A stretch of DNA of 64,000 nt, taken from positions 14,452,191-14,516,190 of the forward strand of contig NC_057753.1 in assembly GCF_004010195.1 (NCBI RefSeq), in the 5' to 3' direction. The stretch comes from Chiloscyllium plagiosum. Taxonomy: Eukaryota. Both the position numbers and the translations under genes were made by a program. The number at the start of each line of letters is the position of its first letter. Positions within the stretch are counted from its first letter, which is position 1. Below are positions 3,474-53,928 of this stretch, piece after piece. Below the pieces are notes generated by a model. The model was not told the origin of the DNA. It made no database searches and saw only the letters and a list, made by a program, of their open reading frames with translations.

Positions 3474-3512
3474 GTATTTTGTACAGTGGTGAGACTGTTT
3501 CTCATCATTGTA
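3474..3512 (-). other. 23-RSS of V1, defective heptamer
   Basis: Minus strand: TACAATG - 23 bp - ACAAAATAC; the essential first C of the heptamer is lost. Confidence 0.85.
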
Positions 3513-4657: not shown

Positions 4658-4755
4658 CTGTGTGTGTGTGTGTGTGTGTCTGTCTGTCTGTCTGTCGGTC
4701 CGTTTGTCACTCTGTCTGGTCTGTGTTTCCGTCTGTCTGTCCGTCTGTCTGTCTG
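4658..4755. repeat. (GT)n/(CTGT)n simple repeat
   Basis: Seen directly. Confidence 0.85.
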
Positions 4756-10232: not shown

Positions 10233-10271
10233 CATTTTGGTACAGAGGGGAGACAATTTCCCATCACTGTG
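10233..10271 (-). other. 23-RSS of V2
   Basis: CACAGTG - 23 bp - ACCAAAATG (degenerate nonamer). Confidence 0.75.
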
Positions 10272-10713
10272 CAGACTCAGAAAGCGCAGTAAACACGACA
10301 GTCTCAGACAGCTGTAGCCCGCTGGTAGTCAAACTGGTGAATTTCTTCGAGGTCTGATTTTCGACAGAGAAACGACTTTGTACAAAATTAGTTTGATCAT
10401 CATCACCATCGGGAGCTTTCCACAGAATAAACTCGGACTGTGTGTCTGGGTGCTGTCAGCACCAGAATATTTTCTCGTAGCTCAAAGTAGTATCTTGCAT
10501 ACTAGAGTAAGTGCCTCTCCGACTGTCTGAGGGGAGTGATTGTGTGACAGAATCTCAATGACTCTGGGCTGATAGGGTAAATGGACATCAATTGTAAAGT
10601 GTCAGGCTGGGATCAGTTTAATGTGTGATTTAATGAAGAAATGTAAAATGCATGTCCTCACGTGTACATGTTAGAATTGCTCCCCACACAATCCAGATCC
10701 TGAGTAGCCACAT
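10272..10713 (-). pseudogene. TRAV/DV: TCR alpha/delta V segment V2 (leader 10668-10713, V exon 10272-10568), pseudogene
   Basis: Clear homology to the other V exons; FR1 deletion, TGA shortly after the conserved Trp (TTC TGG TGC TGA), 1-nt deletion in the YYC codons, weak donor. Confidence 0.85.
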
Positions 10714-12413: not shown

Positions 12414-12452
12414 AGTTTTTGTACAGTGGAGAGACTGTTTATCATCACTGTG
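12414..12452 (-). other. 23-RSS of V3
   Basis: CACAGTG - 23 bp - ACAAAAACT, near consensus. Confidence 0.92.
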
Positions 12453-12890
12453 TCACTCAGAGCGCAGTAATACACGGCAGAGTCAGTCAGTTCTAGCCCA
12501 GTAATAGTCAAACTGGTGAACTTATTCGAGGTCTGAAGTTCTCCTGAGAAGCGCTTTTTCGCAAAATCTGCTGTATCCTCAGAGCCACCAGTACCTTTCC
12601 CCAGAATATACTCGGGCTGTCTGTCCAGGCGCTGGCGGTACCAGTACAACCAATAGACGCTCCATGTAGTATCATAGGTACAGCGCAGAGTCACTGCCTC
12701 TCCTTCTGTGTGAAAAGCTGAGGACAGTGACTGAGTGACAGAATTTCCGTTGCTCGGATCTGAAAGGGAAAACAGATATCAATTGAAAAGTGTCAGGCTA
12801 GGCTCGTTGAAAACCGATTTTTAAAAGAAACATATATTCGAATTGCTCCACATTTGCACCCCACACAACGCAGATGATGAGTAGGCACAT
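12453..12890 (-). pseudogene. TRAV/DV: TCR alpha/delta V segment V3: intact V exon (12453-12759) and RSS, leader splice donor deleted
   Basis: Open V: TLRCTYDTTWSVYWLYWYRQ..DSAVYYCALSD; leader MCLLIICVVWGA lacks the ~13 nt containing AG|GT found in paralog V8, and read-through ends at TAG in the intron. Confidence 0.8.
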
Positions 12891-13244
12891 TGTCGCTGTC
12901 TTCTGTGCCCGAGTGCTGTCGGTTATTTGAAGACATTCAATCTAATATGCCACCCACAATGAACAGATCACGTGTCTGTGGAAATTCTCACCTCAATGGT
13001 CTGTGTCTGTGTGGGGTGGGCAGGGGGGGGGTGTGTGGAGGGGGTGTATGCTATCGTGTTGGTGGAGAAGAGCAGGTTCTCTGTGAAATATACATCCGGA
13101 TCCGGTCTGCAGTCAGTGCATTAAATAAGGAGTACACAGAATTCCAGTAGATTGACTTGCATTCATGACAAACAACTCCCCTGATTCACTGTACACTTTA
13201 CTGTAGTGAAACCATTTTTTTTTGTTTTTTTTTTCTCCTAGTTG

Positions 13245-15600
13245 TTCCTGTCCTCCATCACGAGGTCTCAGACAAGAGCACTGGGAGAGACTGGACCTGT
13301 TGTTAACTCTGGATGAGCTGACCAAGGCCCTTGAGTCCTTAGAAAACAATGAAACCCGTTGAGGCGACAGCATAACGGCCGAGTTGTATTCAGCTCCGTG
13401 GGACCTGATTGGTAAGGACCTGATGGAGATGTACGACAGGTACCTGGCAGGTACCATCGGCGAATCCATGAGGAAAGTTATCATCATTCTCATCTACAAA
13501 CGGGAGGGGGAGAGGGAGAAAATGAGAAATTGGAAACCAATATCATTGCTGAATGCAGACTACAAAACCCTACCTAAAATCGTCGCCAACCTTGTCAGAT
13601 CTGCTTTGGGTTTAATGATTCACGCCGACCAAACTGTCCTACGCAAACCATCACTGAGAGCCTCGTGCTCCTCGGGTATGCGGTTGCATACGTACCGGAC
13701 AGGTGGGTGAAGGCCTGCCTCATCAGCCTGGAGCAGAAGGCCGTTGACGGGATAATGAGCACCTACACGTGGGACATGCTCTCTTATTTTGGGAGGGACT
13801 ATGTCGTTGAATCAGAATGCTCTAAACCTACATCGTTAGTGCAAGCTCAATTAATGGGTGGGAATCTAAAAGATTCCTGATCAGATCCGCAGTCAGGCAG
13901 GGATTCCCACTCTGTCTTGCCTTGTTTGTGCGTTATGTAGAACCCTTTGCGGAGTCCATCAGAAAGGATTCCAACCTGAGGGGGGGCGACTACTCCAGGC
14001 AGCGGATACCTGCAGGTCAAAGCCACCTTGTACATGAATGACGTCACTATTTTCTGCTGTCAATGCACAAACTCATGAGCAGCTGTGAGCAGGTCAAACT
14101 TACCTCAAGGGGCAAGGTAAATCCAGGCAGGAACGAAGCCATGTTCTTTTGGAACTTCGCAGACAAATCCTTCATTGCTTTCACCTTCAGGACCGATTAC
14201 CTGGACAAACTGGGAATATGATCCATCGGGGCTGGGCCATGGATGAAATCTTGGGAGGACTAAAGCAAAGTAAAGCAGATACTGATCTTTTGGGATCACT
14301 GCTTCCTCCCCACTGTGGGTAAAAACTGACCACAAGTTGTGAGGCACTCTCCCCGTTATTCTACGCTGCACAAGTCTGACCCATCACCCAAAACTGTGCC
14401 TAAGATAGACCAAGTCTGTGGGGAATTCATATACAAATCTCTGAATAAGAGGCCTAAGAACGTAACTAATGTTCCTGTCATCCTGATGGCTACCTTTGTG
14501 TGTGGCTGCACCAAGCTTCGCACAGACCCTCAGCACTCAAACTCCAAATGTCGCTATATACTGAGGTTCTACTGCCCCCTGTGTTACGAAGGACGAAACC
14601 GTGGAACACTCCAAGTAGTTGGTTCACTCGTTTTCCCCAGTCCTGTGTACAGAAATTTACCAACGAAAACATGTTTCATCGCAACTCCATCAGAAGTGGT
14701 CAGCATCGAGTATCCTCGAGAGCCTGAGAGAAAAGGAGATAATGGATCATGTGCGTTTCCCTGAGCAGACTGTCAAAGTTACTTGGCAAACTGCCTCATC
14801 GCCAGAACTTTCCAACAAGCACTAATACATTGCTTGGCTGATGCAGAGAAAGGCACTACCTTTGGTATCCTTCATGAATACCTGGCCAGCCAGCGCCAGC
14901 GCCACCACATGTTTCCCTTGAAGTTGCTACGGGGATTTGTGACTGTCGTACATCTCCTTCTGGAATGTGCCTTTGCAAGTGATGTCTGCAGGAAGATGCA
15001 GCACTTTCTGTCAAGGTTCTTCCCAAGTGGGTGGCACGGTGGCACAGTGGTTAGCCAGGTTCAATTCCCGCCTCAGGCGACTGACTGTGTGGAGTTTGCA
15101 CATTCTCCCCGTGTCTGCGTGGGTTTCCTCCGGGTGCTCCGGTTTCCTTTCCAAAGATGTGCAGGTCAGGTGAATTGGCCATGCTAAATTGCCCGTAGTG
15201 TTAGGTAAGGGGTAAATGTAGGGGTATGGGTGGGTTGCGCTTCGGCGGGTCGGTGTGGACATGTTGGGCCGAAGGGTCTGTTTCCACACTGTAATGTAAT
15301 CTAAATTAATCAAGTAGCTCTGTCATGCGGGATTCTGTGCTCAACTTTGTTTTCATTAGGTGCACACCGAGATAGACATCAGCTGCACCAGGACGGACCA
15401 TCAACGTAGTGAATGTTCGCTCTTCGGTCTGCCAGAACTTTGTTGGCCTTCCAGAACAAGGAGCTGACCTCGACTGAGTGTCGCAAACTGGCAAATTCCA
15501 ACGTCCAGGACAACGTGCTCAGGGATGTACGAAAGACTGGGGCAGTTGCTGCCAAAGCGCATTGGGGAAAGACCACACTGTGAGGTCTTCCTGCTGTAGG
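13245..15600 (+). mobile_element. Tx1/L1-clade LINE, 5'-truncated degenerate ORF2 (RT to C-terminus)
   Basis: NWKPISLLNADYKTLPKIVAN, LISLEQKA, VVHLLLECAFA fragments homologous to the 35.6-41 kb element; inserted upstream of V3. Confidence 0.85.
15029..15308 (+). mobile_element. HE1/V-SINE-type SINE nested in the LINE
   Basis: Highly similar to the 5815 copy; short caagt duplication; absent from the paralogous LINE near 52715. Confidence 0.9.
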
Positions 15601-15699
15601 TAAATGTGTGTTGAGTTATCAGACTCTCCTCGTGAGTAAGAGAGATCTTTGGTTTTGTGGATAGCCAAACTCCGATGTTTTGTGTATTTACTATTCAGC

Positions 15700-16335
15700 A
15701 ACTTCAACTACGCTATCTATTGCTCTCGATGTGGTCTCCTCCATATTGAGGAGACAGAACAGCAACTCTCAGAACATCTCAGGTGTCGTCTGTGGGCCAC
15801 ATTTATCCTCCAACGCCACAGCTATGTGGCCGATTACTTCAACTCCATTCGATCTCCACCCAAGGACATACAAGCCTTGGGCCTCCTCCACGGAAAAATC
15901 AAATCTACCCCACGAGTGGAGGATGAACGCCTTATCCTCCAACTTAGGACCCTTCAAACATATGGCATCCCCTTCTATTTCATCAGTTTCCAAATGTCCC
16001 CTCCCCTATCTCATCAAAACTCCAACCCTCCAACTCAGCACCACCCTCGTTACCTGTGCCAGCTGTACATCCTTCTTCCCACCTATCCCCTCCATCGACG
16101 CCACTGACTTAGCCCCTCCATCGACGCCACTGACTTAGCACAATCAACCACCACCTGCATCCACGTATCACGTTCCCTGCCACCTTCCCTTCAACTACAC
16201 TAACACTCGTAGAACTCTCAGTCCCCTTCAAACTCCCACAAACGTGACGAATGATTTATGCCCAAAACATCGACTTTCCTGCCCCTATGATGCGACCTGA
16301 CCTGCTGTGCTTTTCCAGCGCCACGCTTTCTGAAT
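15700..16335 (+). mobile_element. Penelope-like element 3' fragment (GIY-YIG)
   Basis: IYCSRCGLLHIEETEQQLSEHLR..VADYFN..EDERLILQLRTLQ, followed by the PLE tail. Confidence 0.8.
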
Positions 16336-16569
16336 CTGTCAATGTATACATAAAAAGAGATTTTGTTTTGGTGAACAGAGTAGAGTATTGAAATCAGAAA
16401 AGAAACACTGTTGTTCTCTCTTTTAGTCCCGAATTGACGTCAATTCTTGTTCTTGACAATTTCCGGGCTCCCTCCAAGTTCTCAACATTACCCCTGAGAT
16501 TTCCAATCCATACGTACAACTTGTGAGCCCAAAATCTGTCCCTGCTCAAAGTTCAATCACACCTTCCAC

Positions 16570-17830
16570 GTCTCTGACATCTCCCTCCCCTTCCTGGACC
16601 TCTCCATCTCCATCAACATTGACCGACTAAACACTGCCATTTCATACAAACCCACCGACTCCCACAGCTACCTGGATTATATCACCTCCTCCCTACCTTC
16701 TTCCAAAATGCTATCCCGTATTCCCAATTCCTCCGCCTCAACCCCATCCGCGTCCAGGAGGAGCAGATCCACAACAGAACACACTAGATGTCCTCCTTCT
16801 TCGAAGACCTTCCTCTCACACGTGGTGGAAGATGCCCTTCCACGCATCTCATCCGGCACCTCTGCCCTCAAATGCCAGCCCTAGAGCCACAACAAGGGCA
16901 GAACACCCCTGGTCCTCACCTTCCACTCCACCAATCTCGGTATAAATCACATCATCTGCTGACATTTCCACCACCCCTACCACATCCGATTTCCACAAAG
17001 ACCGTTCCATCCACGACTACCTGGTCAAATCCACGCCCACCCCCACATAAACCCACCCTCCATTCCTGAAAGCTTCTCCTGCCACCGCAGGAATTGCAAA
17101 ACTGCGCCCACACCTCCCCTTTCAGCTCCGTCCAAGGCCCCAAAGGAGCCTTCCACATCCAATAAAGTTTCACCTGCACTTCCACACGTCATTTATTGTA
17201 TCCATTGCTCCCGATGCAGTGTCTTCTACACTGCGGAGACCGGATGCCTTCTCGTGGAATGCTTCAGGGAACAACTCCGGGACACCCACACCAATGACCT
17301 CATCGCCCCATGGCTGAACATTTCAACTCGCGCTCCCACTCTGCCTAAGAGATGTAGGTCATCGGCCTCCTCTACCACCATTCCCTCACCAACCGCACCT
17401 GGAGGAAGAACGTCTCATCTTCCACCCCAGAACGCTTCAACTCCATGGCATCAATGTGGACTTCACCAGTTTCCTCAGTTACCTCCCCCCCACTTTACCC
17501 CAGTTCCAACCTTCCAGCTCAGCACTATCCTCATGACCTGCCCCAGCTGCCAACCTTCCTTCTCACCTCTCTGCTCCACCCTCCTCTCTGACCTATCACT
17601 TTGACCACCATTTCCATTCACCTATTGCATTCTCAGCTACCTTCCCCCCAGTCCCACCAACCTCCCATTTATCTCTCCACCTCTGCGACTCCCAGCCTCA
17701 TTCCTGATGAAGGGCTTTTGTCCGAAACATCGATTTTCCTGCTCCTTGCATGCTGCCTGACCTGCTGTGCTTTTCCATCACCACTCAAATCTACACTAAT
17801 CTCCAGCATCTGCAGTACCCACTACTACCT
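16570..17830 (+). mobile_element. Penelope-like element, RT C-terminus plus GIY-YIG, degenerate
   Basis: LPFLDLSI..YKPTDSHSYLDY..IPYSQFLRL motifs; 3' tail containing ctgatgaagggcttttgtccgaaac. Confidence 0.85.
17704..17731 (+). ncRNA. Minimal hammerhead-ribozyme-like motif in the PLE terminal repeat
   Basis: CUGAUGA-A-GGGC(UUUU)GUCC-GAAAC-AUC; PLEs are known to carry minimal hammerheads; helix I not verified. Confidence 0.5.
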
Positions 17831-18977
17831 AGCTGTGTTAACACACATACACATTCACAACACACACGAACAAATAGGGTACTTGTGAGCGTTAGTGTTG
17901 ACCTGCATAAATAGGATAGAGGGGTGATTACGGGATGTCATGAGAGAGTCAGTGTGGGGAAAACAGACCTGGTCAGCGCATGAATTACAGATCCACCGAA
18001 TCAAATCTTCTAAGGATGTTTCCTGTTTCAATTCAAACTCGTCCGACTCTTGAAACCTCCCGAGAAAACAAATCCAGGCCCTCCACTCTTTCCATGTCTA
18101 TCTCAGGCCTGAATATAATCAGCACCCAAACTCTATGGCAAATGATTCCTTAGATTATTTTCACACTGACAGAAGAAATGCCTTCTCACCCTAACTTCAA
18201 TGTATCATTCCTTATTCTGAGAATACGCATCTGTTCCTTTATTCTCCAACACGGTGATTGTTATTCCAAACTATCTCGTCCTTTTTCAAATTCAAATGCA
18301 GAGACAACATTATTAATGAATTTGTAAAATACGCCTTTCATTATTGAATGTTGGGTGGCAAGCCAACAAAAAAAAAGGCAGCACGTTACAAACCCACGGC
18401 CACTTACATCGAGATGACTCAGGGGAGCAAACAAATGGGAACACCATCAGCTGCATGTTCTCTTCCAAGTCATTCACCATTCTAACTTGGAAATGTAACG
18501 CCATCCCTTCAGTTTCATTTTGTGAAAATCTTGCCATTCCCTCATGTTCCACATGTTCAAATACGCAGAAAGTATGAGAAAAGCTTCAAAAGGCACGTCA
18601 CTATTACCTTCTCCATGTGTATTAAGAGTGAGCAAGCCAGCCGGCGAAGCCCACATCTCCTCAGGGAATTAATCATCCCTCATTGGGGAATCATTGGGGA
18701 ATCGAGTAGACATTTTATAAAAGCAAATGTTGTGAATTTGAGACTCTGTCACATGGCGGGCTAATGTGAGTGTGCAAATGTTTTTTTTTAACTACAACAG
18801 TGTGATGACAATAGACATGTCTTAAAACTTACTTTGAGAACAATCAGATTGTGTGAATATATACTCATATAAAACCGTTGAAATGGACGGCCAATTTCAA
18901 TTGGGGAATATAATGTATTTCCACAAAGTAGGATGCTTGTACCCTTGTTGTCTCTCATAATTTCTCCTACGTTGCAG

Positions 18978-33723: not shown

Positions 33724-33882
33724 NNNNNNNNNNNNNNNNNNNNNNNNNNNNNNNNNNNNNNNNNNNNNNNNNNNNNNNNNNNNNNNNNNNNNNNNNNNNN
33801 NNNNNNNNNNNNNNNNNNNNNNNNNNNNNNNNNNNNNNNNNNNNNNNNNNNNNNNNNNNNNNNNNNNNNNNNNNNNNNNNNN
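33724..33882. other. Assembly gap (N run)
   Basis: 159 N. Confidence 1.
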
Positions 33883-34012
33883 TGCTCGCCTGTCTCTCTC
33901 TGTGCAAACGGAGATCCTTGTCAAGGTTTTGTTAGGGCCAAAGCCCACATGCGTTGCACTTCAACTTGCCTTGAATTGATGCCATGTCACTCTCTGCTGG
34001 CAACTCAGAGTT

Positions 34013-35558
34013 TTTTTTTAATTTCAAAATATACTTGATTCATAGAAATAAATCTTTGGTACCTCTACAATTGGTCATGCAGTTCATATATATACATTGC
34101 ATGTCTTAACATTACAGAGAACAGATTGAGTTATTCGAGTTTACAGTTAATGTATTTACAGTTCTGTTTGTTGTACAGTTCTTAGTATTTAGCTGAGGCT
34201 TTAGCGGAACCCAACTACTGAGTGGGCCCCTTGTTATACGATAGCAAAGGAACCTTCTTTAACCCCCAGGTTATGGGGTTACCATTGTCCATTTGACTGT
34301 CCTGTCTGTAGGGTAGCTGTCTGCATCCCCATGGTGAGCACGAACTGCTGGACCCTCGCTGGGCTGAGGTAACTGTCCAGATCCTCACTGGAGTCATTTA
34401 CCTGCTCTGGTGTCATTGAGCCAAGGCAAGGGTCCACACCGTCCAGTTCTGTGTCTGACAATGGGACTGTCAGAGAATCACGACTCTCAATTACCTGTAG
34501 CTGTGGGGCAGTGGGTACCCCCTGGTTCTCATTGGATGGAGGGTGGACTTCGGGGCGTCCGTTGTTTCCTGGTTGGGAGGAAATGCCCTCCTCTTTATCT
34601 ACGGCGCTCTATCTCTTCTGGTGATGGCCCTCCTTGCGCCTGTCTTCACCATCCGAAGAGCTGGCTATCCCTCCCTCGTGCAGCTGTCTTTTCCCCCTTT
34701 GCTGGGAGACGTGGCCGGATTTTCTTTTCCTGTTTTTAACAGGTATCCACTCCTCTGCCTGCTCGATTACCTCCTCCTCCATTGCTTCCATCTGCCCAGC
34801 TAGAGCTAGGATCAGCTGCTGTGTCTCTCCACTGTCTGCCGCCTCCTCCACTCCAGTCTGTTGGTCTTTCTGGGTGCCACCATACTCCGTTTCCCTGTTG
34901 TCTTGGTGGACCTTGCTGGTCTTTGGGGGTCCACGGCTCACATTGCCACCTCCAGCCATCTGTGCGTAAGTGGGGCCGTCCGTCTTGGGCAGGTCTTGTA
35001 CATGTGGCCCGCCTCTACGCACAGTTTGCAGCTCTTTGCTTCCTGATAGTCCTTGGTCAGGTGACCCTCCTGTTTGCAGTTCTTGCAAATGGTCACCTTG
35101 CAATCTGCTGCCATGTGTCCTGACTTCCCGCAGGTTCGGCACACTTTCGGCTGCCCTGCATATGTCAGGTAACCTCTGCTCCCTCCAATTGCAAAGCTCG
35201 AGGGTGGGTGGAAGATGTGCCCGTTGTCATTGACCCTCAGGTTTACCCTGACCTGCCGCTTTCTGGTCCAGATCCCGAAAGGGCCGACCACATTGGTGCT
35301 TTCTCCCTAGACTTGGACGTACCTTCCCAGGAAGTCAGGACATCAACCGCTGGAACATAGGGGTTGTACATATGGATTGTAACAACCCGACTCCTCTGTG
35401 CAGGAAGCACACACAACGGGACTGCTGACAGGATGGAGAACAAAGGCTCCCCTTCCTTCTCCTTGAAGTCCTTCAGGAGCTGCTCGCACTGCTTCACACT
35501 CCTGAAGGTCACGTGGAAATAGCCTGCCCCAGGGAAATCCTGCAGGCAGTACACGTCG
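34013..35558 (-). mobile_element. ORF1-only, 5'-truncated Tx1-clade derivative with its own 3' UTR and A-tail
   Basis: ORF1 YCLQDFPGAGYFHVTF..QPKVCRTCGKSGHMAADC..CKNCKQEGH..CKLCVEAGH (three CCHC knuckles), joined near 34270 directly to a 3' end resembling 35560-35770; no ORF2. Confidence 0.8.
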
Positions 35559-36233
35559 TTTTTTTAATTTCAAAAATATACTTTATTCATAAAATAATTT
35601 GATGGTGTGTACAGTTGGTCATGCCATACATACGTGAACATTTGCATGCAGAGATCAGAATTTATCAATTGTATATACAAGTCTGTTCGTTTATCAATCG
35701 TATGTCCATCTATTTAGCTGAGGCGTCAGCAGAGCCCAAATGACTGCGTGGGCCCCCTGTTCTTCTTAGGCAGGCAGATGTTACACGGTGGTATTTCCCC
35801 ACCACGCCTTGGCAGCAGCTGCCCCAAGCTTCAGCACGTCCCTCAACATGTAGTCTTGGACCTGGAATGTGCCAATCTGCAACACTCAGTCGGGGTCAAC
35901 TCCTTCAGCTGGAAGATCAACAGGTTTCGGACGGCCCAGAGAGCGTCCTTCACCGAGTTGATGATCCTCCAGGCACAGTTGATCTTCGTCTCGGTGTGCG
36001 TCCGGGGGAACAGGCTGTAGAGCACGGAGTCCCACGTCACGGCGCTGCTCGGGACGAACCTCGACAAACACCACTGCATTCCTCTCCAGTCTTCTTCTGC
36101 GTAGGCACATTCCAGAAGGAGGTGTGTGACAGTCTCGTGCCCCCCGCAGCCGCTTCGAGGGCAGCGTGCGGTGTGGCTGAGAGTCCAGGAGTGCATAAAG
36201 GATCTCACCGGCAGAGCCCTTCTCACCACCAGC

Positions 36234-36434
36234 ACTGAAAAGGTGTTGCTGAAAGAGCGCAGCAGGTCAGGAAGCATCCAAGGAGCAGGAGAATCGACGT
36301 TTCGGGCATGATCCCTTCTTCAGGAATTCCCGAAACTTCGATTCTCCTGCTCCTTGGATGCTGCCTGACCTGCTGCGCTTTTCCAGCAACACATTTTCAG
36401 CTCTGATCTCCAGCATCTGCAGTCCTCACTTTCT
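36234..36434. mobile_element. Palindromic Penelope-terminal-repeat mini-insertion within the Tx1 ORF2
   Basis: Inverted copies of the PLE tail (gcaggtcaggaagcatccaaggagcaggagaatcg / cgattctcctgctccttggatgctgcctgacctgc); 16-bp TSD ccttctcaccaccagc at 36218-36233 and 36435-36450. Confidence 0.85.
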
Positions 36435-39400
36435 CCTTCTCACCACCAGCCAAGCCATGTCTCGGTGCTTGTTGGAAAGTTCTGGCGATGAGGCATTCTG
36501 CCAAATGGCTTTGACAGTCTGCTCAGGGAACCGCTCAATAGGATCTGCCGTCTCGTTTTCCCGAAGGGTGCCTATGACACTACGTGCTGACCACTTCCTG
36601 ATGGACTTGTGATCAAAGGTGTTTTTCTTCATAAATTTCTCCACGAAGGACAGGTGATACGGAACGGTCTGTGTTCTGCGGCAGCGAGGCCAGGCACATC
36701 CTTCGCTACACCGGGAACAGGTAGAACCTCAGTACGTAGTGACACTTGGTGTTTGCGTACTGGGGATCCATACACAGCTTGATGCAGCCACACACAATGG
36801 TGGCCATCAGGGTGAGGGTGACATTGGGTGCGTTTATTCCCCCATTGCCCAGATCTTTATACATCGAGTCCCTTTGGACCCGGTTCATCTTTGATCTCCA
36901 TATAAATTGGAAGATGGCCCGGGTGACTGCAGCAGCACAGATTCTGGGAATAGGCCAGACCTGCGCCATGTATAACAGCAATGAGCGACTGTAGCTTCCA
37001 TCTGCCCAGTTTCTGCCTCACTTTGCTGATACGCTCCTCCCAAGACTTGGCGTACGCCCCAGACCTCCCCCCCCCCCCCCCACCCGCCCCGAACCAAATA
37101 CCCAGCACCTTCAGGTGGTCGGTCCTGATGATGAAGGGGATCGAGGATTGGTCGGCCCAGTTCCCGAAGAGCATAGGCTCGCTCTTGCCTCGGTTTGCTT
37201 TGGCCCCCGAGGCCCGTTTGAACTGGTCACATATGCACATGATTCTGTGCACGGACAGCGGATCCGAGCAGAAAACGGCAACGTCATCTATGTACAGGGA
37301 GGCCTTGACTTGTAGGGCCCTGCTGCCAGGAATAGTGACCTCTCTCAGGCTCGCATCCTTCCTGATGGACTCGGCAAGTGGCTCTACGCAGCACATAAAC
37401 AAGGCAGGAGAGAGAGGGCAGCCCTGCCTGACTCCAGATCTGACTGGGAAGCTGTCTGATTCACACCCATTGATTGAGACTGTACTGGCAATGTTGGTGT
37501 AGAGCAATCTGATCCAATTGCAGATTCCCTCCCCAAAGCCCATTTTGGAGAGAACATCTCTCATATACGTGTGTGATATCCTGTCAAATGCTTTCTCCTG
37601 GTCCAGGCTGATCAGGCAGGTGCCCAACCCTCTGTCCTGCACACAGGCGATCATATCCCTGAGGAGTGCGAGACTCTCAGTGATCTTCCTGCCCGGTACA
37701 GCACAGCTTTGGTCAGGGTAAGTCACTGACCCCAGAGCAGACCTGACCCAGTTGGCGATAACCTTTGACAGAATTTTGTAATCCACATTCAACAGTGGGA
37801 TGGGTCTCCAGTTTTTGAGTTCCTCCCTCTCCCCCTTCCGCTTGTAGATGAGGGTAATGATGCCGTTCCTCATGGATTCACTCATGGTACCTGCCCGAAG
37901 CATACTGACATACGCCTCCAGCAGGTCCTGGCCAATCAAGTCCCACAGAGCAGAATAGAGCTCGACCAGTAAGCCGTCACTTCCGGGAGTTTTATTCTTT
38001 TCGAAGGACTCGAGGGCCTTGGTTAGCTCGTCCAGAGATAGCGGCTGCTCCAGCCTCTCCCGTGTTCTGTCGTCTAAGACCTCCGTTGTAGAGGACAGGA
38101 ACAACTGGGAGGCCGCGCTGTCGGTCGGCTTCGCGTCATACAGACTGGCATAGAAGGATTTACTGATTCTCATGACGTCAGCCTGAGATGACATTATCGA
38201 GCCATCTTCTTCCTTCAGGCTGCTGAGCATGGAGCTCTCTTTGTGCACCTTCTGGAAGAAGAAACGTGAGCACGTCTCGTCCTGCTCCACCGAGCGGACC
38301 CCAGACCAGAAGATTATCTTGGAGGCCTCCGAGGCAAAGAGCGAGGCTTGCTGGCCCTTCACCTCCTTGTGGTCCTCGGTGACATCGACCCCAATCGTCT
38401 GCAGCAGGAGCATGTTCTGCATACCTTCCTGGAGCTGGGACAGTTTTCTCCGTCTCTCTCTCTCACCTCCTGAACACCTTTGAGGATGAAGGACCTCTTG
38501 ATGTTCCCTTTTACTATTTCCCACCAGTCCACATGGGACTCAAAGAGGGGCTTCACGGTTCTCCAACCTGAGTAGTCCCTCTTGAGCTCTACAATGTTTC
38601 TCGGGGTCAACAGCTTTGTGTTCAGCTTCCACGTTCCCTTACCAGCCCGCTGCTCGTCCTGTAGGTGACACAGTCGGCCAGCAGGAGGCAGTGGTCAGAG
38701 AAGAACACCGGCTTGACGTCGGTGTATCTGACCAAGAGATTTCGGGACACAAATAGGTAATCTATCCTTGAGCAGATAGACCCGTCTGCCCGTGACCAGG
38801 TGTATCTACGCTGCCTTCGGTCTGCAGGGATACTGAAGACATCGTGCAGCTTGGCATCTTTTACCGTTTCCATCAGGGCTCTGGACATGGCGTCCAGTTT
38901 ACTGTCCCTCCCGCCGAATCGCCCATCTGTATCAATGATACAGTTGAAGTCTCCGGCCAGAATGACCGGCCTGGACCTAGTCAGCAACAGTGGAAGCTGC
39001 TGCAGGACGGCCAACCGTTCCCTCTTCCCCACTGGGGCGTACGCATTAATCAGTCTCAGGCGAGCATTCCTGTACATGACGTCGGTGACGAGGAGGCGCC
39101 CGCCCACCACCTCCTTAACCTCGGAGATGGTGAAGTTGCCTCCTCGCAACAGGATACCCAGGCCGGAGGCACGGCTATCGTTGCCCCTCGACCAAACTGA
39201 TGGCCCATGAGCCCACAAGCTCGACCATCTCCTGTCGCTGCTGAGGTGTGGTATCCCACACTCCTGCAGAAACAGGACATCGGCTTTAACGTTGGCCAGG
39301 AAGGCCATCGTAGAAACACATCACGTAGCCGATTTGATGCCAAGCACATTGATGCTGGCAAATCTTATCCCCATTTTAACAGTTTATGAGGTTACCAGTG

Positions 39401-40906
39401 TCCATTTGCTGCTGGTCTTGCCTCTCCGGGGTAGCTGTGTGCATCCCCGTGGTGATGGCAAACTGCTGGACCCTCCCAGGGCTGAGGTAGCTGTCCGGCT
39501 CCAGTTGGAGCCGTTTCCCCGCTCTGGTGTCTTCGCGTTGGGCCCTGGGTCCGCACAGCCCAGTTCTCTGTATGACAGCGGGGCTGTTACAGAACCGCTG
39601 CTCCCAGTTACCTGGAGCTGTCGGCCGGTGGGTACGCCTTAGATCTCACTGTGTGGGGACTAGTCTTTACCCATCCCCTCAGAGGGATCGTCTTTTCCTG
39701 CTTGGGCGGTGCTGCCCTCCTTTTTCCCCACGGCGCTTTGTCTCTTCCTCTGGTGACGACCCTCCTTGTGCCCGTCCTCACCGTCGGAAGACCTGCCTGT
39801 ATCCTCGTCGTGTAGGTGTCGTTTCCCCCTTTGCTATGTGGCTTTGGGAGGTTTCCTCTTCCTGCTTTTGACAGTAATCCAATCCTCTGCCTCCTTTGTT
39901 CCCTCCTCTTCCATTTCCTCCGTCTGTCTTGAAGGAGCTTGGATCGGCTGCTGCACCTCCCCGCTGTCTGCCGTCTCATCCATTCCAGCCTGCCCTTTCT
40001 TCTGGGTGTCCCCAGACACTGATCCCATGCTGTTTCGTGGTACCTTTCTGGTCTTATACGGTCCACGGCTCGTGTTGCCACCTCTGGCCATCTGTGCATA
40101 GGTGGTGGCCCTCGTCTTGGGCAGGCCTTGTACATGTGGCCCGCCTCTCCGCACAGATTACAGTTCTTGGCCTCTTTACATTCCTTGGTCGGGTGGCCTT
40201 CCTGCTTGCAGTTTCGACAGACGGTCATCTTCCAATCCGCCGCCATGTGGCCTGACCTCCCGCAGGTTCGGCACACTTTTGGCTGCCCTGTATGTCAGGT
40301 AACCTCTGCTTCCTCCGATGGCAAAGCTGGAGGATGGGTGGAGGATGTTCCCACTGGCATCGACCCTCAGGGTTACCCTGACCTGTCGTTTGCTGGTCCA
40401 GATCCAGAAAGGATCGTCCACATCAGTGCTTTCTCCCTTGACTTGGACGTATCCTCTCAGGTAGGTCAGGACATCTGCTGCTGGGACGTGGGGATTGTAC
40501 ATATGGATTGTAACAACCCAACTTCCCTGCGCAGGAAGAACACACAACAGGACCGCCAACAAGGTGGAGAACAGAGGTTCCCCTTCCTTTGCCTTATACA
40601 TGTCCGCTGCTGCAAACCCACAACATCCCAACAGTACCTTCTTGATGAACAGGGTCCGATCGACCTGTGTACGATCCTCCACCTTCTTCACCTGTTTGAA
40701 AACCCCCTGTCCGGGGCTGCGGGCGGCTGCTGAGGCCATAGCTCTGAGGTTGGCTGGTACCTGAATTGGTGTTAGGCCGAAGCCAGCATGAAGATCCACC
40801 AAGAGCAGGTCAGCACAACCAAACGACCCTCCAACGTCCAATCACGTTCCAGCGACGATCTCAACGCTCTCGACTGGCTCTAACAACTCGCCACTCGTCA
40901 CCTGTT

Positions 40907-40998
40907 CTGATAAGAACAAGCACTTGATCTTTGCCAAAAGGCCTAGAAGCGATTTAAACTGATAAGTAAACATATTCGGAGCGAAAAGGCCGAGAAGC
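40907..40998 (-). pseudogene. RNU2: Two tandem U2 snRNA 5' fragments at the 5' end of the Tx1 element
   Basis: Minus strand gcttctcggccttttcgct..cttatcagtttaa then atcgcttctaggccttttggcaaagatcaagtg-cttgttcttatcag, compared from memory with U2 ATCGCTTCTCGGCCTTTTGGCTAAGATCAAGTGTAGTATCTGTTCTTATCAGTTTAA. Confidence 0.85.
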
Positions 40999-42771
40999 TG
41001 GCGGCTCAGAGTTACTGCAGCTGTGACCAGACATACGGCAGCAACTGACAGCAGCATCCAATCTGACAGAACCGTCATAACGCATACACAGACAAATAAG
41101 ATCAGTGTGGTTATTAGAGAGCTGGCCCATGTGAAAATTACAGAATGGTTAATGTGGGGATCACAAAGATGATCAGACTGGGAAAAAAACAGGCATGGTG
41201 AAGGTGTGGATTACAGATTCTCCTAACCAAGTCCTCTCTGGACTTTATATGCTTCATTCAACCATGTGTATATCTTGCAACCTCCAGAAGATACAAGGCC
41301 AGGCTGCATAGTCTTCCATATCTATCTCAGACTTGTGCATATTTTGCACAAAATCTCTGTCGTAAACATTTCCACAGATTCTTCTCTATTTGAGAGAACA
41401 AATGTCTCCTCATTTTGATCTTAAACGTGTGCCTCCTTATTCTGAGCTTATGCCACTGCTCCTGGATTCTTCCACGGTACAACAAGCTTTCTGTGTTGAT
41501 TCTGTCAATTTTTCATTTCACACCACTACAGCATACGACAGTTGAATGTGAGCCTGCTGACACAAATCGGGAAACTACCACACTGTCACAAGATCTCTCC
41601 ATGCTGCTGGCATATATGCAGATGAATTATGCAGACATTGATAAGCAGAAAGTATGTTTAATCCTATTGATCCATTTGCAGAACTCCAGATCTGCATTAA
41701 CACAAACGAATTATGTGCTATGTTAGTGGGATTCGGACAGGAATGCTTTCACACTTTAACATGCTGGAGTGAAAATGGATTGCCGTTATTGGACACGAAC
41801 AAATCAAGAAACTGAGCAAGTGTTTCAGCATTAGGAAGACAGCTGACGTACAACCTGCCATGTAATGGGATCTAACTTTGATTCTGTTTTAAGGATTCGC
41901 TCCATCACATTGTGAGATCTGTCTGTTGTGCACAATGCAGCCTTGATCCAAAAATTAACCTTGAACAAACGCATCCCCTAATCAACCTGTGGATTGTTAC
42001 TCCGAGAAACTGACATGAGAGATGTGGAAAGATCGGTCCGGAGTGACAGGCGTGTATAACAAGAGAAACAGTGGACAAAACAAATGTTAAAATGTCTCCA
42101 GTGAATTTATGAATGTCAGCTGTACATAGGAGTTGAGATCAACAAAAACTGCACATTGTCGCCATGTGGGCGCGTTGTTGATGCTGTCAGTTTGAATTGT
42201 ACTGCAAGTTGCTGATCTGTAGTGTATGTTACTCTCTGATTGAACCATTGATTGGTTTGACGACTCTCTTGTACAGTAACGGGCATCCATCAACAGAGGG
42301 TGGCATTATATCTAGATGAAGGGAAGGTCATGAAGCGAGGGAAAAGATTTAGTTTTTTTTTAAATCTAGTCATTCACAATCACTCCTCTAATCAATTTAT
42401 CTCAAAAATGCGCCAGTCTGCAGCTTATGTGCTGACATTAGATCCGTGATGAAACGCTCCAGATTAACGTTTCTAAATTTTGAGCATGTTTCCCATCAGG
42501 CAATAAGACAGACAGAACAATACACAGCACAACCGTTGAAACACTCACATAAAGGTATCAAATCAAACATACACAACGAAACGTTCTTATACACAAATAC
42601 ATATTTGCACTAACACGTGAAAACTCAGATAAATGAATACCAGGGATTGGTGGTTGGAATCAACGTCCAGTTTCCCTACTGGGAAGTCCAATGTGCTTCT
42701 AGGGAGCTGGAAGCTTGCACTCTTATCTCCTCTCATCAGTTCGTCAACCGGGATTTGAATTCGTGTTCGCG

Positions 42772-43092: not shown

Positions 43093-44364
43093 CCTAGGAG
43101 ATAGGAATCTTACCGACAGCCTCGCCATCTCAAGCACAACAACCCTGCAGAAGAGCAGCAAGAACAGAATGAACATGCATTTTGCGGAGCTCCCACGTCC
43201 AATTCAGAAATGTTGCATCAGTATTAATTGGTGAGAACTTATATTGTTTCTATTTCCAAATCATTCTGAAAGATGATATTATTAATCTCTAGATCAGCTA
43301 AGTAGAGAAACCGGGAAGATTTTACCCAAAGGGATGCACACTACCATTGCATATCAGTACCCCGTCTGAATGTTAAGTGTGACTCCCCTTCTTCCATTTC
43401 ATTTGGGACAATGAGGAATAACCAATGTTAATCGCACATCCATCGACATGTCCTATTGACAAGAATACAACATCAAATTGAACAGCAGCGCTCTGCTTTA
43501 TGATGCAAAGCAGACCAGAGGAGGAAGTGATTTTGTTAAACTTCCATCACACACTTAATGAAAAGCAAAATCACGGGACCTCTCGTATACCATATTAGTT
43601 AAAACGAGAGAAAGATATAGGAATGAGTAATGAGAGTAATCTCCGTAAAATTGCAGCTGAAAAGAAGTCTCAAAAAATTGAGATGAAAGACCCCGTGGTG
43701 TAACTGGTTTCTTTTTTTACGTATGATACCGCCAATCAAACTGAGGCTAGAGAGGGATTTTGATTCACGTTCTGGGATTGTTATTGATTAATAAATTGTT
43801 GCATATTTCACTTAAACAGGCCCACATAACAACACAGAGAGAGAGAGAGAAAGAGAGATGGTTGCAATGGTGTGTACTCAATAGATACAGTTCAATGTGA
43901 TCACATCGATGATGGGAAAACAGATACACTATTCTGGCAATACAATCAAATCAGCATCACCAGCCTTTCGAATAACTTGTCTTCAATAATCTGTGGTCGT
44001 GTCGCTAGATGTTTCTCCTTACTCGCATGTAAGCGCAGTTAGGGGGAGGGTGTTTGTGTGAGTGCTGAGTCTGTGAAACTTGGAAACTGAGATCTTTCTC
44101 CCAGCGGACCGTCTACAAACCACATGACAGGAAATTGTTAACCATGGGGCTTGCAGTTGAGTGTTCAGACATGACTCTCTTCCGTATACTGTGTGAGTGT
44201 TTGGAGTCTTCAGCTTATTTTCTCAGAAGCTCCAGGAAGCCATTGTGTAACAGCCCGATCGAGGTTATTTTGGTTTCCTCTTGGTGCAAGTTTAAACAGT
44301 ACGTTACAACAGCCCAGGATCAGACCAACTCCAACCAACAGAGAGCCAATTTATGGTTCAAGGA

Positions 44365-44403
44365 AGTTTTTGTACAGGGGCAAGACTGTTTCTCATCATT
44401 GTG
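44365..44403 (-). other. 23-RSS of V7
   Basis: CACAATG - 23 bp - ACAAAAACT. Confidence 0.9.
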
Positions 44404-44859
44404 TCATCCAATAAAGCACAGTAATACATGGCAGTGTCAGAGAGCTGCAGCCCGCTTATAGTCAAACTGGTGAATTTCTTTGAGGTCTGAAGTTCTGCAG
44501 AGAAACGATCTTCCGCGAAACTTGCTTTACTTTCAGAACCATCGCTATACTTCCACAGAATAAATTCCGGCTGGGTGTCTCGGCGTTGCTGGTACCAATA
44601 AAATGTATAGTAACTCACTGTAGTTTCATAGGTACAGCTTAGAGTCACCTCATCTCCTTTTGTCCGAACAACCGAGGGGAGTGACTGAGTGACGGAATCT
44701 CCATGACTCAGATCTGAAAGGTAAAACAGAAATCAATTGCAAACTATCAGGTTGGTGTCAATTTAAACCATGAGTTGATAAAGAAATGTGCAATGCATTT
44801 CCTTCGCTGTTACCTGTTAATATTGCTACCAATAGAAACAAAATGCTGAGTGGCCTCAT
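44404..44859 (-). CDS. TRAV/DV: TCR alpha/delta V segment V7, apparently functional (leader 44814-44859, V exon 44404-44713)
   Basis: Leader MRPLSILFLLVAILT, GTAACA donor, TTCAG acceptor, open V DSVTQ..TLSCTY..WYQQ..YYCALLD. Confidence 0.9.
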
Positions 44860-49455: not shown

Positions 49456-49652
49456 GTCGACAGTGTGGTGCTGAAAACGTACAGCAGGTCAGGCAGCATC
49501 CGAGGAGCGGGAGAATCGACGTTTCGGGCATAAGCCCTTCATCCTAAAACGTCGATTCTCCTGCTCCTCGGATGCTGCCTGACCTGCTGTTCTCTTCCAT
49601 CAGCACACTCTCGTCTCTGATCTCCAGCATCTGCAGTCCTCACTTGCTCCAA
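49456..49652. mobile_element. Palindromic Penelope-terminal-repeat mini-insertion
   Basis: Inverted PLE tails; 12-bp TSD aaagtgacaata (49444-49455, 49653-49664); empty paralogous site at ~9131-9150. Confidence 0.88.
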
Positions 49653-50625: not shown

Positions 50626-50939
50626 TGTCACTGTCTTCTGTGTAAAGATGCAGTCGGATATTTGAAGACACCCATTCTATTACCCTGCCCTCGGTAAACT
50701 GCTGACGTGTCTCTGGAGATTCCCACCTCACTGCTCTGTGGGGGTGATGGGAGGGGATATGCTATTCGTGTGGGTGGAGAAAAGCAGATTCTCTGTGAAT
50801 TGTACATCTGGATCTGCACTTAACAAGGAGCGTCGAGAATTCCATTAACTTTCATTCATGATCAGCAACTTCCCACTTTCATTGTGCCCTTTACTCTAAA
50901 GACACTGTTTTTTTTTTTGTTTTGTTTTCTTTCTACCCG

Positions 50940-53005
50940 TTGTTCCTATCCTCTATCACGAGGTCTGACACAAAGCACGTGGGAGAGACTGGAGCTGTCG
51001 TTAATTCTGGATGAGATTACCAAAGCCCTTTAGTCCTTACAAAAGAATGAAAGTCCTGGAAGCGACAGTATACTGGTCGAGTTGTATTCAGCGCTGAGTG
51101 ACCTGATTGGCCAGGACCTGCTGGAGATGTGCGAAAGGTACGAGGCAGGTGCCATTCGCGGCTCCATGAGGAAAGGCATCATCATTCTCATCTACGAACC
51201 GAAGGGGGAGTGGGACTAAGTTAGAAATTGGAAACCAATATCATTGCTGAATGCAGACTACAAAGTCCTGCCGAAAGTCATCTCCAATCTTGTCAGGTCT
51301 GCTCTGGGTTTGATGACTCACGCCAACTAAACTGTAATAGACAGACAATCTCTAAGAGCCTCGTGCTCCTCTGGATATGTGCAGGATACGTGGGTGGACG
51401 CCTGCCTCATCAGCCTGGAGCCGTTGACACGATAATGCACACGTACGGGTGAGCATCCTCTCCAAACTGAGGAGGGAATCTGTAGTTGGATCCGAATACT
51501 CTACACCAACATCATTAGAGCAGTCTCAATCAATGAGTCAGAATCTGAAAGGTTCCTGATCAGATTCGCTGTCAGGCAGGGCTGCCCAGTATCTCTTGCC
51601 TTGTTTGTGCGTTATGTAGAGCACATCGCTGAATCCATCAGGAACGATACACGCATGAAGGGGAGTGACTGGTCCAGGCAGCAGAGGCCTGCAGGTCAAA
51701 GCCATCTTGTACATGAATGACATCGCTATTTTCTGCTCAGATTCGCTGTCAATACACCGACTCATGAGGCAAGGTAAATAGAAGCAAGGGCGAGGTCATG
51801 TTCCTTGGGAACTCAGCCGACTACTACTTAATTGCATTTACCGTCAGGACAGGCTACCTGGTGGTGCTGAGAGTATGGTGCAGTGGAGTCGGGCCGTGCA
51901 CAAACTCCTGGGAGGAGGGCATCACCAAAGTAAAGTAGAAAGTGGCCTTTTGGGATCACCTCTTCCTCTCTATTGTGGGTAAAACTGATCATCAGGTGTG
52001 AGACACTCTCCCTGCTACTGTACACAGGACAGGTCTGACCTGTCCCCCAAAACTGTCCTGTTCCACTCACCAGAGACACCTTTCATCCAGAGGCCTAAGG
52101 TAGACGGAGTCTGCAGGGAATTCATATAAAAAACTCTGAATATGGGACTGAAGAACGTACCCAATGTTCCCCTCATCCTGTTGGCTACCTTTGTGTGTGG
52201 ATGCACTAAGCTTTGCATAGACCCTCAGCACTGAAACACCAAATGTCACCATATACTGAGATTCCACTGCCCCCCGTGTTACGAAGGATGAAACCGTGGA
52301 ACACTCCAAGTACTTGGTCCACTCATTTTCCCCTGTCCTGTGTACAGAAATTTACAAAGGAAAACACGTTTCATCTCAAGTCCATCAGAAAGTGGTCAGC
52401 ATGGACCGTCCTCGAGACGCTGATGGAAAAGGAGAGAATGGATCATGTTGTGTTTTTTTTTCCCTGAGCAGACTGTCAAAACTATTTGACCGACTGCCTC
52501 ATCACCAGAACTTTCCAAAAACCGCTAAGACATCGCTTGACTCGTGCCGAGAAGGGCAGGACCTGTGGTATTCTTCATTCATACCTGGTCAGCCTGCACC
52601 AACGCATGCTGAATTGGTCGCAGAGGGGTTGAATCTGTCATACATCTCCCTCTGGAATGTGCCTTTGCATGAGAAGGCCGCTGGAAGATGCAGTACTTTA
52701 TGCCGAATTACTTCCTGAGCAGCTCCATACCACAGGGCTATGTGCTCTACATTGTGTTTCCTGGGGTGTGCACCAAGGCAGACATCATTGGCGCCTGGTG
52801 CAGCTTCAACTCAGTGAATGACGCTCTTTGGTCTGCCCGAATTTTGTTGGTCTTCCAGAACAAGGATTTGACCCTGACCGAGTGTCGCAGACTGGCACAT
52901 CACAACGAGCAGGTCTACGTGCCGAGGGATGTACTAAAGCCTGGGGCAACTGCTGCCCAGAAGCAGTGGGGAAAGACCACGCTGTGAGGTCTTCCTGCTG
53001 AAGAA
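50940..53005 (+). mobile_element. Tx1/L1-clade LINE, degenerate ORF2 (paralog of 13245-15600)
   Basis: Same insertion point upstream of V8 as upstream of V3; ends QKQWGKTTL*. Confidence 0.85.
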
Positions 53006-53147
53006 AAATGGGATCCTGTTCAGTTATCTGATCCTCCTAGTAAGTAAGAGAGATATTTGGTTTTGTGGATAGCCAAACTCCGATGTTTTGTGTATTTATT
53101 GATATGCTACCTGCACAGACGCAAACTGCTTTCGTTTCAATGTAAGT

Positions 53148-53928
53148 AGAGAGAAAGCGAGGACTGCAGATGCTGCAGAGTCAGAATCGAAAATTGTGGC
53201 GCTGGAAGGGCACAGTAGGTCAGGCACCATCCGGGTCTTTTCACCTCCACAGACATTTACCTGCGCATCTATCCACCTCATCTACAGTGTCTGTTGCTCT
53301 CGATGCGATCTCCTCCATATCGGAGCGACCGGACACCAACTCTCTGAACATTTCAGGGAATATCTCTGGGACACACGCACCCTACATACCTACAGCCCTG
53401 TGGCCGAACACTTCAACTACTTCTCCCACTCCACCAAGGAGATACAAGCCCTGGGCCTCCTCACTGCCAAATCCCACAAAGATTTTCATTGTGCCTCAGT
53501 ACACGTGACAATAAATTCAATTCAATTCAATCCACCCGATGACTGGAGAAAGAATATCTTATCCTCCGCCTTAGGAACCCTCAAACACACGACATCAACT
53601 TCGACTTCACTAGTTCCTAAATTTCCCCTCCTCCCATCTCACCCCAGTTCTAAACTTCCAACTCAGCACCCCCCTCTTGACCTGTGCCACCTGTCCATCT
53701 TCCTTCCCACCTACCCAGGCCAGCGACTATTACAATCAACCATAATTTGCATCCACCTACCACTTTCCCTGCTACCTCCCGTCAACCCACTCACCCTCCT
53801 ATTAGCTCTCAGCCCCCTTTCTCTTCGCTACAAACATGATAAATGGCATATGCCCAAAACGTCGATTCTCCTGCTCCTATAATGTTACCTGACCTGCTGT
53901 ACTTTTCCAGCACCACGCGATCTGACCC
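53148..53928 (+). mobile_element. Penelope-like element 3' fragment with inverted terminal piece
   Basis: FTCASIHLIYSVCCSRCDLLHIGATGHQLSEHFREYL..VAEHFN; inverted tail at 53148-53230. Confidence 0.8.

What the first reader, a model, noticed from the sequence alone, without database searches (positions are those of the whole stretch)
40907..40998. Tandem U2 snRNA 5' fragments, both lacking the branch-point-recognition sequence, cap the Tx1 element
Seen: two consecutive U2-like pieces (about U2 nt 4-57 and 1-52) in the same orientation as the element. Each matches U2 on both sides of, but not across, the GUAGUA region. Knowledge: the Tx1-clade Keno family targets U2 genes near this position, and snRNA-LINE chimeras arise by template switching. 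Inference: a Keno-related element that absorbed defused U2 sequence as a 5' leader, or carried cleavage-scarred target sequence, and now inserts outside U2 genes, here in a TCR locus.
Basis: partly seen in the sequence, partly recalled or inferred. Interest (0 to 1): 0.7.

Follow-up and report, generated by a model that had tools for sequence, protein, structure and literature searches.

The report
Shark LINE with doubled U2 head
A broken jumping gene in a shark-type T-cell-receptor gene cluster begins with two damaged pieces of the U2 splicing RNA, most likely leftovers of its ancestors' landing sites in U2 genes; U2-headed relatives are already described in crocodilians, so this is a tidy new example, not a new kind.

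Summary
Confirmed. On the minus strand, 40998-40954 is U2 nt 4-35 plus 45-57, and 40953-40907 is U2 nt 1-33 plus 41-52. Both lie inside the 17-bp target-site duplication of a decayed full-length Tx1 LINE, so they travelled with it. Its RT and endonuclease group with shark and amphibian elements, next to a Keno verified here by its U2 flanks. Both lesions span U2 38/39, the published Keno insertion point. The missing branch-point sequence is therefore best read as old 5' junctions (upstream plus duplicated downstream target), as described for R2 in 28S genes, and not as selected 'defusing'. In sequencing contigs the outer 29 nt are high-copy (about 240-480 times single-copy depth) and join the Tx1 5' UTR in two other species. 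The inner piece is low-copy, so the full doubled leader is not shown to be family-wide. The new site weakly resembles the U2 target (about 1% by chance, one site). U2-headed Tx1 families and stacked U1/U2 heads are published (Kojima 2015). This scan earlier noted U2-headed Keno-type copies in this genome and in another. New member of a known kind.

The parts
40997..41013 (-). 5' copy of the target-site duplication (17 bp at most; 14 bp, 41012-40999, if one A goes to the poly(A) tail and the last 2 letters to the U2 head)
   Evidence: 15 of 17 identical to 33996-34012. A paralogous contig without the head matches the flank up to 40997 (X1 record 7).
40954..40998 (-). Outer U2-derived head A: U2 4-35 (diverged at 19-33) joined to U2 45-57
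   Evidence: First 29 nt (40998-40970) are high-copy in contigs.
40907..40953 (-). Inner U2-derived head B: U2 1-33, two other letters, U2 41-52
   Evidence: Low-copy in contigs.
40740..40906 (-). 5' UTR of the Tx1 element
   Evidence: Lies between head B and the ORF1 ATG at 40739. High-copy from 40862 downward.
39380..40739 (-). ORF1, broken (ZCCHC3-type RNA-binding domain, zinc knuckles); 3' limit approximate
   Evidence: Pfam PF23058 E 1.8e-22, PF00098 E 5.5e-9. Best hits are shark proteins, 50-69%.
35781..39374 (-). ORF2, broken (AP endonuclease, RT, zinc-binding domain)
   Evidence: Pfam PF03372, PF00078, PF13966. Six pieces in changing frames against an intact relative.
36234..36434 (.). 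Later 201-bp palindromic repeat inserted in ORF2 with its own 16-bp duplication
35559..35780 (-). 3' UTR, poly(A) signal and poly(A) tail of the full-length element
   Evidence: Sequence.
34013..35558 (-). Second, 5'-truncated Tx1 relative (ORF1 part joined to a 3' UTR and poly(A), no ORF2), directly behind the first poly(A) and inside the same duplication
   Evidence: 77% to 39380-40595 and 68% to the 3' UTR. No duplication copy at the middle junction.
33996..34012 (-). 3' copy of the target-site duplication
44358..44732 (-). Neighbouring T-cell-receptor-type V segment with a 23-bp-spacer recombination signal (host context; such units repeat through the window)
   Evidence: Pfam V-set E 4e-18. 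Signals found with a recalled motif.

Best explanation
This is a dead full-length Tx1 LINE of the Keno group whose 5' end carries two U2-derived heads, which are likely old 5' junctions from insertions into U2 genes that were then copied along with the element. Steps: (1, shown) both heads lie inside the duplication and in the element's orientation. (2, shown) each head is U2 sequence from upstream of the 38/39 Keno insertion point joined to U2 sequence from downstream of it, with 7-9 nt around that point missing. (3, inferred) an ancestor sat in a U2 gene, was transcribed from the U2 promoter and so carried its own 5' junction as the start of its RNA: upstream target trimmed near the nick plus a duplicated stretch of downstream target. 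(4, inferred) a second head was stacked on, either by end-to-end re-insertion into another U2 gene or by template jump to the RNA of a sister subfamily. (5, partly shown) the outer head is now a conserved, non-U2 5' end of many copies. (6, inferred) the endonuclease lost strict specificity and put this copy into a loosely U2-like site between V segments. The branch-point sequence is lost because it abuts the nick, not because it had to be disarmed.
For: Duplication of 15/17 brackets heads and element. Keno inserts in front of U2 nt 39 (passages of PMC6136364; section 6 of PMC4640811). L001 shows this directly: U2 1-26 before the element, poly(A) plus U2 39 onward behind it. Both lesions (U2 34-40 and 36-44) cover 38/39; chance for two independent lesions of that size is about 0.02. 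Head B ends at U2 52, 14 nt past the nick, and the present duplication is 14-16 bp in the register that matches the Keno nick. R2 elements give the precedent: fixed small target deletions, downstream target sequence at the 5' end, and tandem target duplications that are propagated and then diverge (passages of PMC3774820). RT tree: window plus Heterodontus (SH-aLRT 99) plus amphibians (94) is sister to the clade holding L001 (99); joint node 91. The endonuclease gives the same grouping (0.95, 0.81). Contig depth on 40970-40998 is 6325 (X1) and 541 (X9) against 27 and 40 in the next bin, and these contigs keep the non-U2 letters. One contig each in organisms B and C joins this motif to the Tx1 5' UTR. 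The present site matches U2 33-44 at 8 of 12, reached by 0.35% of window positions.
Against: The RT is sister to, not inside, the verified teleost Keno clade, and node support of 91 from a quick search is moderate. The two genuine U2 5' junctions I could read end at U2 26 (L001, L002) and 40 (L007), not 52, so a 14-nt stagger in U2 is not shown for Keno. Depth over head B is only 23-61 (X1) and 35-166 (X9), so most copies do not carry this version at 80% identity or better; a human-DNA filter could also hide U2-like contigs. No copy of this family was seen in a U2 gene. The target resemblance rests on one site and three possible registers (about 1% overall), and falls to 4-7% with longer windows. 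Head A matches U2 at only 6 of 12 letters over nt 19-30, which a junction model alone does not explain.
Confidence: 0.6

Rival explanations
1. SINEU-style stacking: the heads were added by template switching of the RT onto U2 snRNA or onto other U2-headed RNAs. The intact U2 target in them was later nicked by the element's own endonuclease and repaired with small deletions, or such losses were favoured because they stop self-insertion.
For: Recurrent 5' addition of U1/U2 pieces, including heads of sister subfamilies, is documented for SINEU (PMC4494074). Head A is shared with copies whose 5' UTR differs from this one upstream of 40862 (loose ends). The second Tx1 piece behind the poly(A), with no duplication between, also suggests template jumping.
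Against: Needs two steps per head. Both heads end 14 and 19 nt past the Keno nick, the size of a duplication, though template switches could end anywhere in U2.
Confidence: 0.25
2. Selected defusing: the heads do a job for the element RNA (promoter, cap or processing, stability), and the branch-point and U6-pairing bases were lost because a working U2 5' end on a LINE transcript would disturb splicing.
For: The first 15 nt of head A equal U2 while nt 19-30 have changed in a way shared by many copies. U2 nt 19-30 pair with U6 (recalled).
Against: The lesions coincide with the Keno nick, a simpler cause. Head B keeps U2 1-33 almost intact. No internal promoter is reported for snRNA genes (PMC4494074). 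Crocodilian Tx1 heads are described without any such claim in the text read.
Confidence: 0.1
3. One-off chimera: both U2 pieces were captured at this one insertion and decayed in place.
For: Head B is low-copy, and the deletion in A is seen only in own-locus contigs. The copy is old and heavily broken.
Against: The 29-nt non-U2 version of head A is 15 to several hundred times single-copy depth and linked to the Tx1 5' UTR in two other species. Contigs with 8-14 other letters also run into head B with no indel listed there (X1 record 4; X9 records 22, 23).
Confidence: 0.05

Closest known systems
U2- or U1-headed Tx1-Mar families of crocodilians (Tx1-11_Crp with a U2 head; Tx1-2_Crp, Tx1-2B_Crp and Tx1-4_AMi with U1 heads) and SINEU (Kojima 2015, PMC4494074; main text read, figures and supplements not seen)
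   Same: Tx1 LINE co-clustering with Keno, U2-derived 5' head, inserted outside U2 genes. Stacked U1/U2 heads and internally deleted U2 occur in SINEU.
   Different: Here a cartilaginous-fish lineage; two U2 heads on an autonomous-type LINE, both broken across U2 38/39; the site is a V-segment spacer, not Mariner-N4. I could not compare letters with Fig. 1B.
Keno (U2-gene-specific Tx1-clade LINE; Kojima and Fujiwara 2004, not read, as cited in PMC4494074, PMC4640811, PMC6136364); comparator L001
   Same: AP endonuclease plus RT, poly(A) tail, 41% RT identity to L001, sister clade, U2 5' sequence in front, weak likeness of the target to the U2 site.
   Different: Not in a U2 gene; no U2 39-onward behind the poly(A); the head is part of the inserted DNA and includes U2 bases from downstream of the nick.
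R2 elements with 28S-derived 5' ends (PMC3774820, passages read)
   Same: Target-gene sequence carried at the 5' end, fixed small deletions at the junction, downstream target duplicated upstream, tandem duplications that diverge.
   Different: R2 has a restriction-like endonuclease and a ribozyme and stays in 28S genes. No ribozyme was found at this 5' end by Rfam.

Membership tests
Tx1 clade non-LTR retrotransposon | ORF1 with zinc knuckles; ORF2 with AP endonuclease, RT and C-terminal zinc domain | tested here: met
   Pfam hits on all parts, though broken
Tx1 clade non-LTR retrotransposon | Poly(A) 3' end and target-site duplication | tested here: met
Keno | RT phylogeny with Keno | tested here: inconclusive
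   Sister to the clade holding the flank-verified Keno L001, joint support SH-aLRT 91, not nested in it. Named Repbase families were not available; Takifugu BAD04856 and Danio BAC82621 carry no family name.
Keno | Inserted in a U2 gene with U2 nt 39 onward as the 3' flank | tested here: not met
   The 3' flank is V-segment spacer DNA; 8 of 12 likeness only
Keno | Most family copies sit in U2 genes | not testable with these tools
   No genome held
U2-headed Tx1 (Tx1-11_Crp type) | U2-derived sequence at the element's own 5' end, inside the duplication | tested here: met
U2-headed Tx1 (Tx1-11_Crp type) | Head shared by many copies | tested here: met
   Met for the outer 29 nt (high depth in 2 of 2 DNA-sized runs; joints to the 5' UTR in X9 and X16); not shown for the inner head
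Tx1-Mar | Preference for Mariner-N4_AMi-like targets | not tested
   No repeat library; the flank here is homologous to other V-unit spacers
SINEU | Short (under about 500 bp), non-coding retroposon | tested here: not met
   5.4-kb element with ORF1 and ORF2
Utopia | Restriction-like endonuclease | tested here: not met
   AP-type endonuclease PF03372 at the ORF2 N-terminus

The most novel reading that the evidence does not exclude
Sharks carry a large Keno-derived LINE lineage caught in the act of leaving U2 genes. It took its old target along as a 5' head, stacked heads over successive U2 insertions, lost the nick site in each head so that it cannot cut itself, turned the outer U2 piece into a conserved functional 5' element on hundreds of copies, and still picks U2-like sites. 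That would be a readable record of how a site-specific LINE that depends on a host promoter becomes free-living, and a possible origin for SINEU-type heads.
Probability: 0.2. Interest if true: 0.65.

Novelty: new member of a known kind. Interest (0 to 1): 0.35.

Why it matters
How snRNA-headed retroelements arise and are transcribed is left open in Kojima 2015, which favours template switching. Heads broken exactly at the Keno insertion point offer another, testable origin: inherited 5' junctions from U2-gene insertions, as in R2. It also extends U2-headed Tx1 elements to cartilaginous fish; I found no such report in 8 completed paper searches, which do not cover Repbase or subscription journals. 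The copy itself is dead, and no effect on the receptor locus was examined.

Tried and rejected
No genome is held, so other full-length copies could not be read directly. An exact scan for the 29-nt outer head found 0 matches in metagenome contigs and 0 in viral contigs; these collections are unlikely to hold shark DNA, so this says nothing. The RT alignment found no relative in viral contigs (31 pattern matches, 0 confirmed). No RNA holder was listed. The raw single-cell RNA run X21 (about 2% read) gave 4 reads, none on the leader: no evidence either way on expression. X16 is only guessed to be RNA. Folding the heads gave nothing distinctive: B keeps the U2-like 5' fold, A is nearly unstructured (-2.7 kcal/mol). 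The two other Tx1 fragments in the window (about 13235-15690 and 50933-53098) are 5'-truncated and carry no U2. Rejected: the element sits in a U2 gene or pseudogene (flanks are V-unit spacer and the duplication encloses the U2 pieces). Rejected: head A is a tandem copy of head B (A keeps U2 nt 10 where B has changed, and the lesions differ). Rejected: the high-depth contigs are true U2 genes (the only change listed in 40970-40998 is at 40978, and the non-U2 letters at 40983, 40979, 40975, 40974 and 40972 are not listed as changed; 65 weaker rows were hidden). The careful IQ-TREE run did not finish; the quick tree is reported. Look-ups in the scan's notes by sequence, by relatives and by two word sets were empty. 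A bioRxiv paper on LINE-1 chimeras had 0 hits for U2 snRNA, Tx1, shark and Keno.

Full report
Observation. The two U2-like pieces are real and lie on the minus strand, as does the element. I compared them with a complete U2 gene fetched here (L006; Rfam 190.5 bits). The inner piece B is U2 1-33 (31 of 33), two other letters in place of U2 34-40, then U2 41-52 (12 of 12). The outer piece A is U2 4-35 without gaps (25 of 32; differences at 19, 23, 24, 27, 28, 30, 33), then U2 45-57, with 36-44 missing. Alignment scores were 71.5 and 50.5 against a best of 28 elsewhere among 2546 window segments. Rfam finds B at E 0.0017 in 1 kb, under the gathering score.

Anatomy. Behind the heads come a 167-nt 5' UTR, ORF1 (ATG at 40739; ZCCHC3-type domain and zinc knuckles), ORF2 (AP endonuclease, RT, zinc domain), a 3' UTR and poly(A) at 35559. 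ORF2 falls into six pieces in changing frames and holds a later 201-bp insertion, so the copy is dead. A second, 5'-truncated Tx1 relative without ORF2 follows directly. One duplication of up to 17 bp (15 identical; 33996-34012 and 40997-41013) encloses heads and both pieces. The heads are therefore inserted DNA, not a resident U2 gene. The flanks are spacer DNA of a repeated V-segment unit with 23-bp recombination signals. ORF1's best hits are shark proteins; I infer a cartilaginous fish.

Relationship to Keno. A scan of metagenome contigs kept 80 of 547 confirmed loci, from 9 of 64 parts of the collection. Four of the 80 hold U2 sequence at the contig's 5' side, and one (L001) is a full Keno with U2 1-26 in front and poly(A) plus U2 39 onward behind. 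A FastTree of 194 RT rows (the window, 74 of 80 loci, 119 of 120 proteins; shorter hits dropped) and a quick IQ-TREE of 45 rows that I chose from them agree. The window groups with Heterodontus (SH-aLRT 99) and amphibians (94), sister to the clade with L001 and teleost sequences (99), joint node 91. In the FastTree the joint node had only 0.56, and the enclosing 58-row node 0.92. The endonuclease (132 rows) gives the same grouping at 0.95 and 0.81. So it is Keno-group, but not shown to be Keno proper, and it fails Keno's defining target.

Is the leader a family trait? No genome was held, so I laid 4 of 24 listed runs on 40600-41200 at 80% identity. The tool warns that summed contig depth is no copy number; I use it for orders of magnitude. 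In X1 the own-locus contig has depth 13 and the flank 27. The 5' UTR reaches 10,000-18,600. The stretch 40970-40998 has 6325, and the bin arithmetic puts its inner edge at 40970; depth is back to 27 from 40999, the edge of the duplication. In X9 (another species) the values are 35, up to 33,000, and 541. These contigs keep the non-U2 letters of head A. One contig in X9 and one in X16 (a third species) join this motif to the Tx1 5' UTR. Head A's first 29 nt are thus a family-level 5' end. Head B is different: depth 23-61 in X1 and 35-166 in X9, a few contigs' worth. Three of these contigs differ from the window by 8-14 letters and show no listed indel within B, so B's lesion is likely shared by a few copies. 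Most copies diverge from this one upstream of 40862, so their full heads are unseen, and contigs close to true U2 may have been filtered out as human-like. An X9 contig spanning flank and head (20 other letters in 219) suggests the insertion predates the split of the two species. The 4 RNA reads laid miss the leader and say nothing.

Mechanism. Keno and Utopia insert in front of U2 nt 39 (passages of PMC6136364; section 6 of PMC4640811; seen in L001). Both lesions span 38/39 (chance about 0.02), and both heads stop 14 and 19 nt past it, the size range of a duplication. Each head thus looks like a 5' junction: upstream target trimmed near the nick plus duplicated downstream target. R2 elements do this with 28S: fixed small deletions, downstream target at the 5' end, and tandem duplications that are carried in the RNA, propagated and eroded (12 of 28 passages of PMC3774820). 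I infer that an ancestor in a U2 gene was read from the U2 promoter, took its junction along, gained a second head, and later inserted outside U2. The present site matches U2 33-44 at 8 of 12 in one of three possible registers (0.35% of positions, about 1% overall; 1% for a 16-nt window and 4-7% for 22 nt). That is one site, scored after the fact. Against the model: real U2 junctions here end at nt 26 and 40, not 52; no U2-resident copy of this clade was seen; and the shared changes at U2 19-30 in head A are unexplained. Template-switch stacking with later self-nicking is the main rival (0.25). Selected defusing (0.1) and a one-off chimera (0.05) are weaker.

Comparison with what is known. Kojima 2015 (PMC4494074; parts 1-4 of 5 read, that is the whole main text) reports crocodilian Tx1-Mar families that cluster with Keno, insert outside U2 genes and carry U1 or U2 heads (Tx1-11_Crp has a U2 head). 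It also reports SINEU families with repeatedly stacked U1/U2 heads and an internally deleted U2. Its Fig. 1B and supplements could not be seen and may show whether those heads also lack the 38/39 region; this bears on the novelty claim. I found no report for cartilaginous fish; a vertebrate review mentions snRNA heads only for crocodilians (passages). The scan's own notes, unchecked AI text, list a U2-headed Keno-type copy and a U2-headed chimera on other pieces of this genome, and a head of exactly U2 1-52 in another genome. They fit my reading but are not counted as support.

Verdict. Real, and a new member of a known kind. The parts worth keeping are the position of both lesions on the Keno nick, the high-copy diverged outer head, and the hint of residual U2-like targeting. 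Interest 0.35; the bolder reading has probability 0.2 and would deserve 0.65.

Noticed in passing
window 34013-35558 (-): A 5'-truncated, ORF2-less Tx1 relative (ORF1 part plus 3' UTR and poly(A)) follows the full-length element's poly(A) directly. One duplication encloses both, with none between: template jump or 3' transduction. It suggests a non-autonomous ORF1-only family.
   Followed up: partly
window 36234-36434; also 17704 and related repeats near 881-1011, 49465-49650, 53850-53916: Palindromic 200-bp repeat with a 16-bp duplication inside ORF2. It holds a minimal hammerhead-like core (recalled motif, 2 matches in the window), as known for Penelope-derived repeats (recalled).
   Followed up: partly
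L006 72-263 and 6094-6146: A Tx1-like element (RT match 3369-4679) lies between a complete U2 gene and the start of a U1 gene, not at the Keno site: possibly a spacer-targeting family in a U1/U2 cluster. Its RT groups with coral-type sequences.
   Followed up: no
L007 15-54: U2 nt 1-40 directly precedes an element whose RT falls outside the vertebrate Keno clade: a second U2-associated lineage.
   Followed up: no
L001 74-99, 5808, 6549-6665: Complete Keno in a U2/U5 repeat unit; the 5' flank stops at U2 26, so nt 27-38 of the target are deleted on insertion.
   Followed up: partly
proteins P0003/P0007 clusters: The closest amphibian relatives (Pleurodeles) have many near-consecutive locus numbers, suggesting tandem arrays, as expected for insertion into a multicopy gene cluster.
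   Followed up: no
window 40690-40700: ORF1 of this copy lacks internal stretches present in relatives (joints and loose ends at 40691-40705; also shorter than the second piece in the first RNA-binding domain).
   Followed up: no
window 33724-33882: A 159-base assembly gap lies 114 bases from the 3' duplication; it does not touch the element.
   Followed up: no
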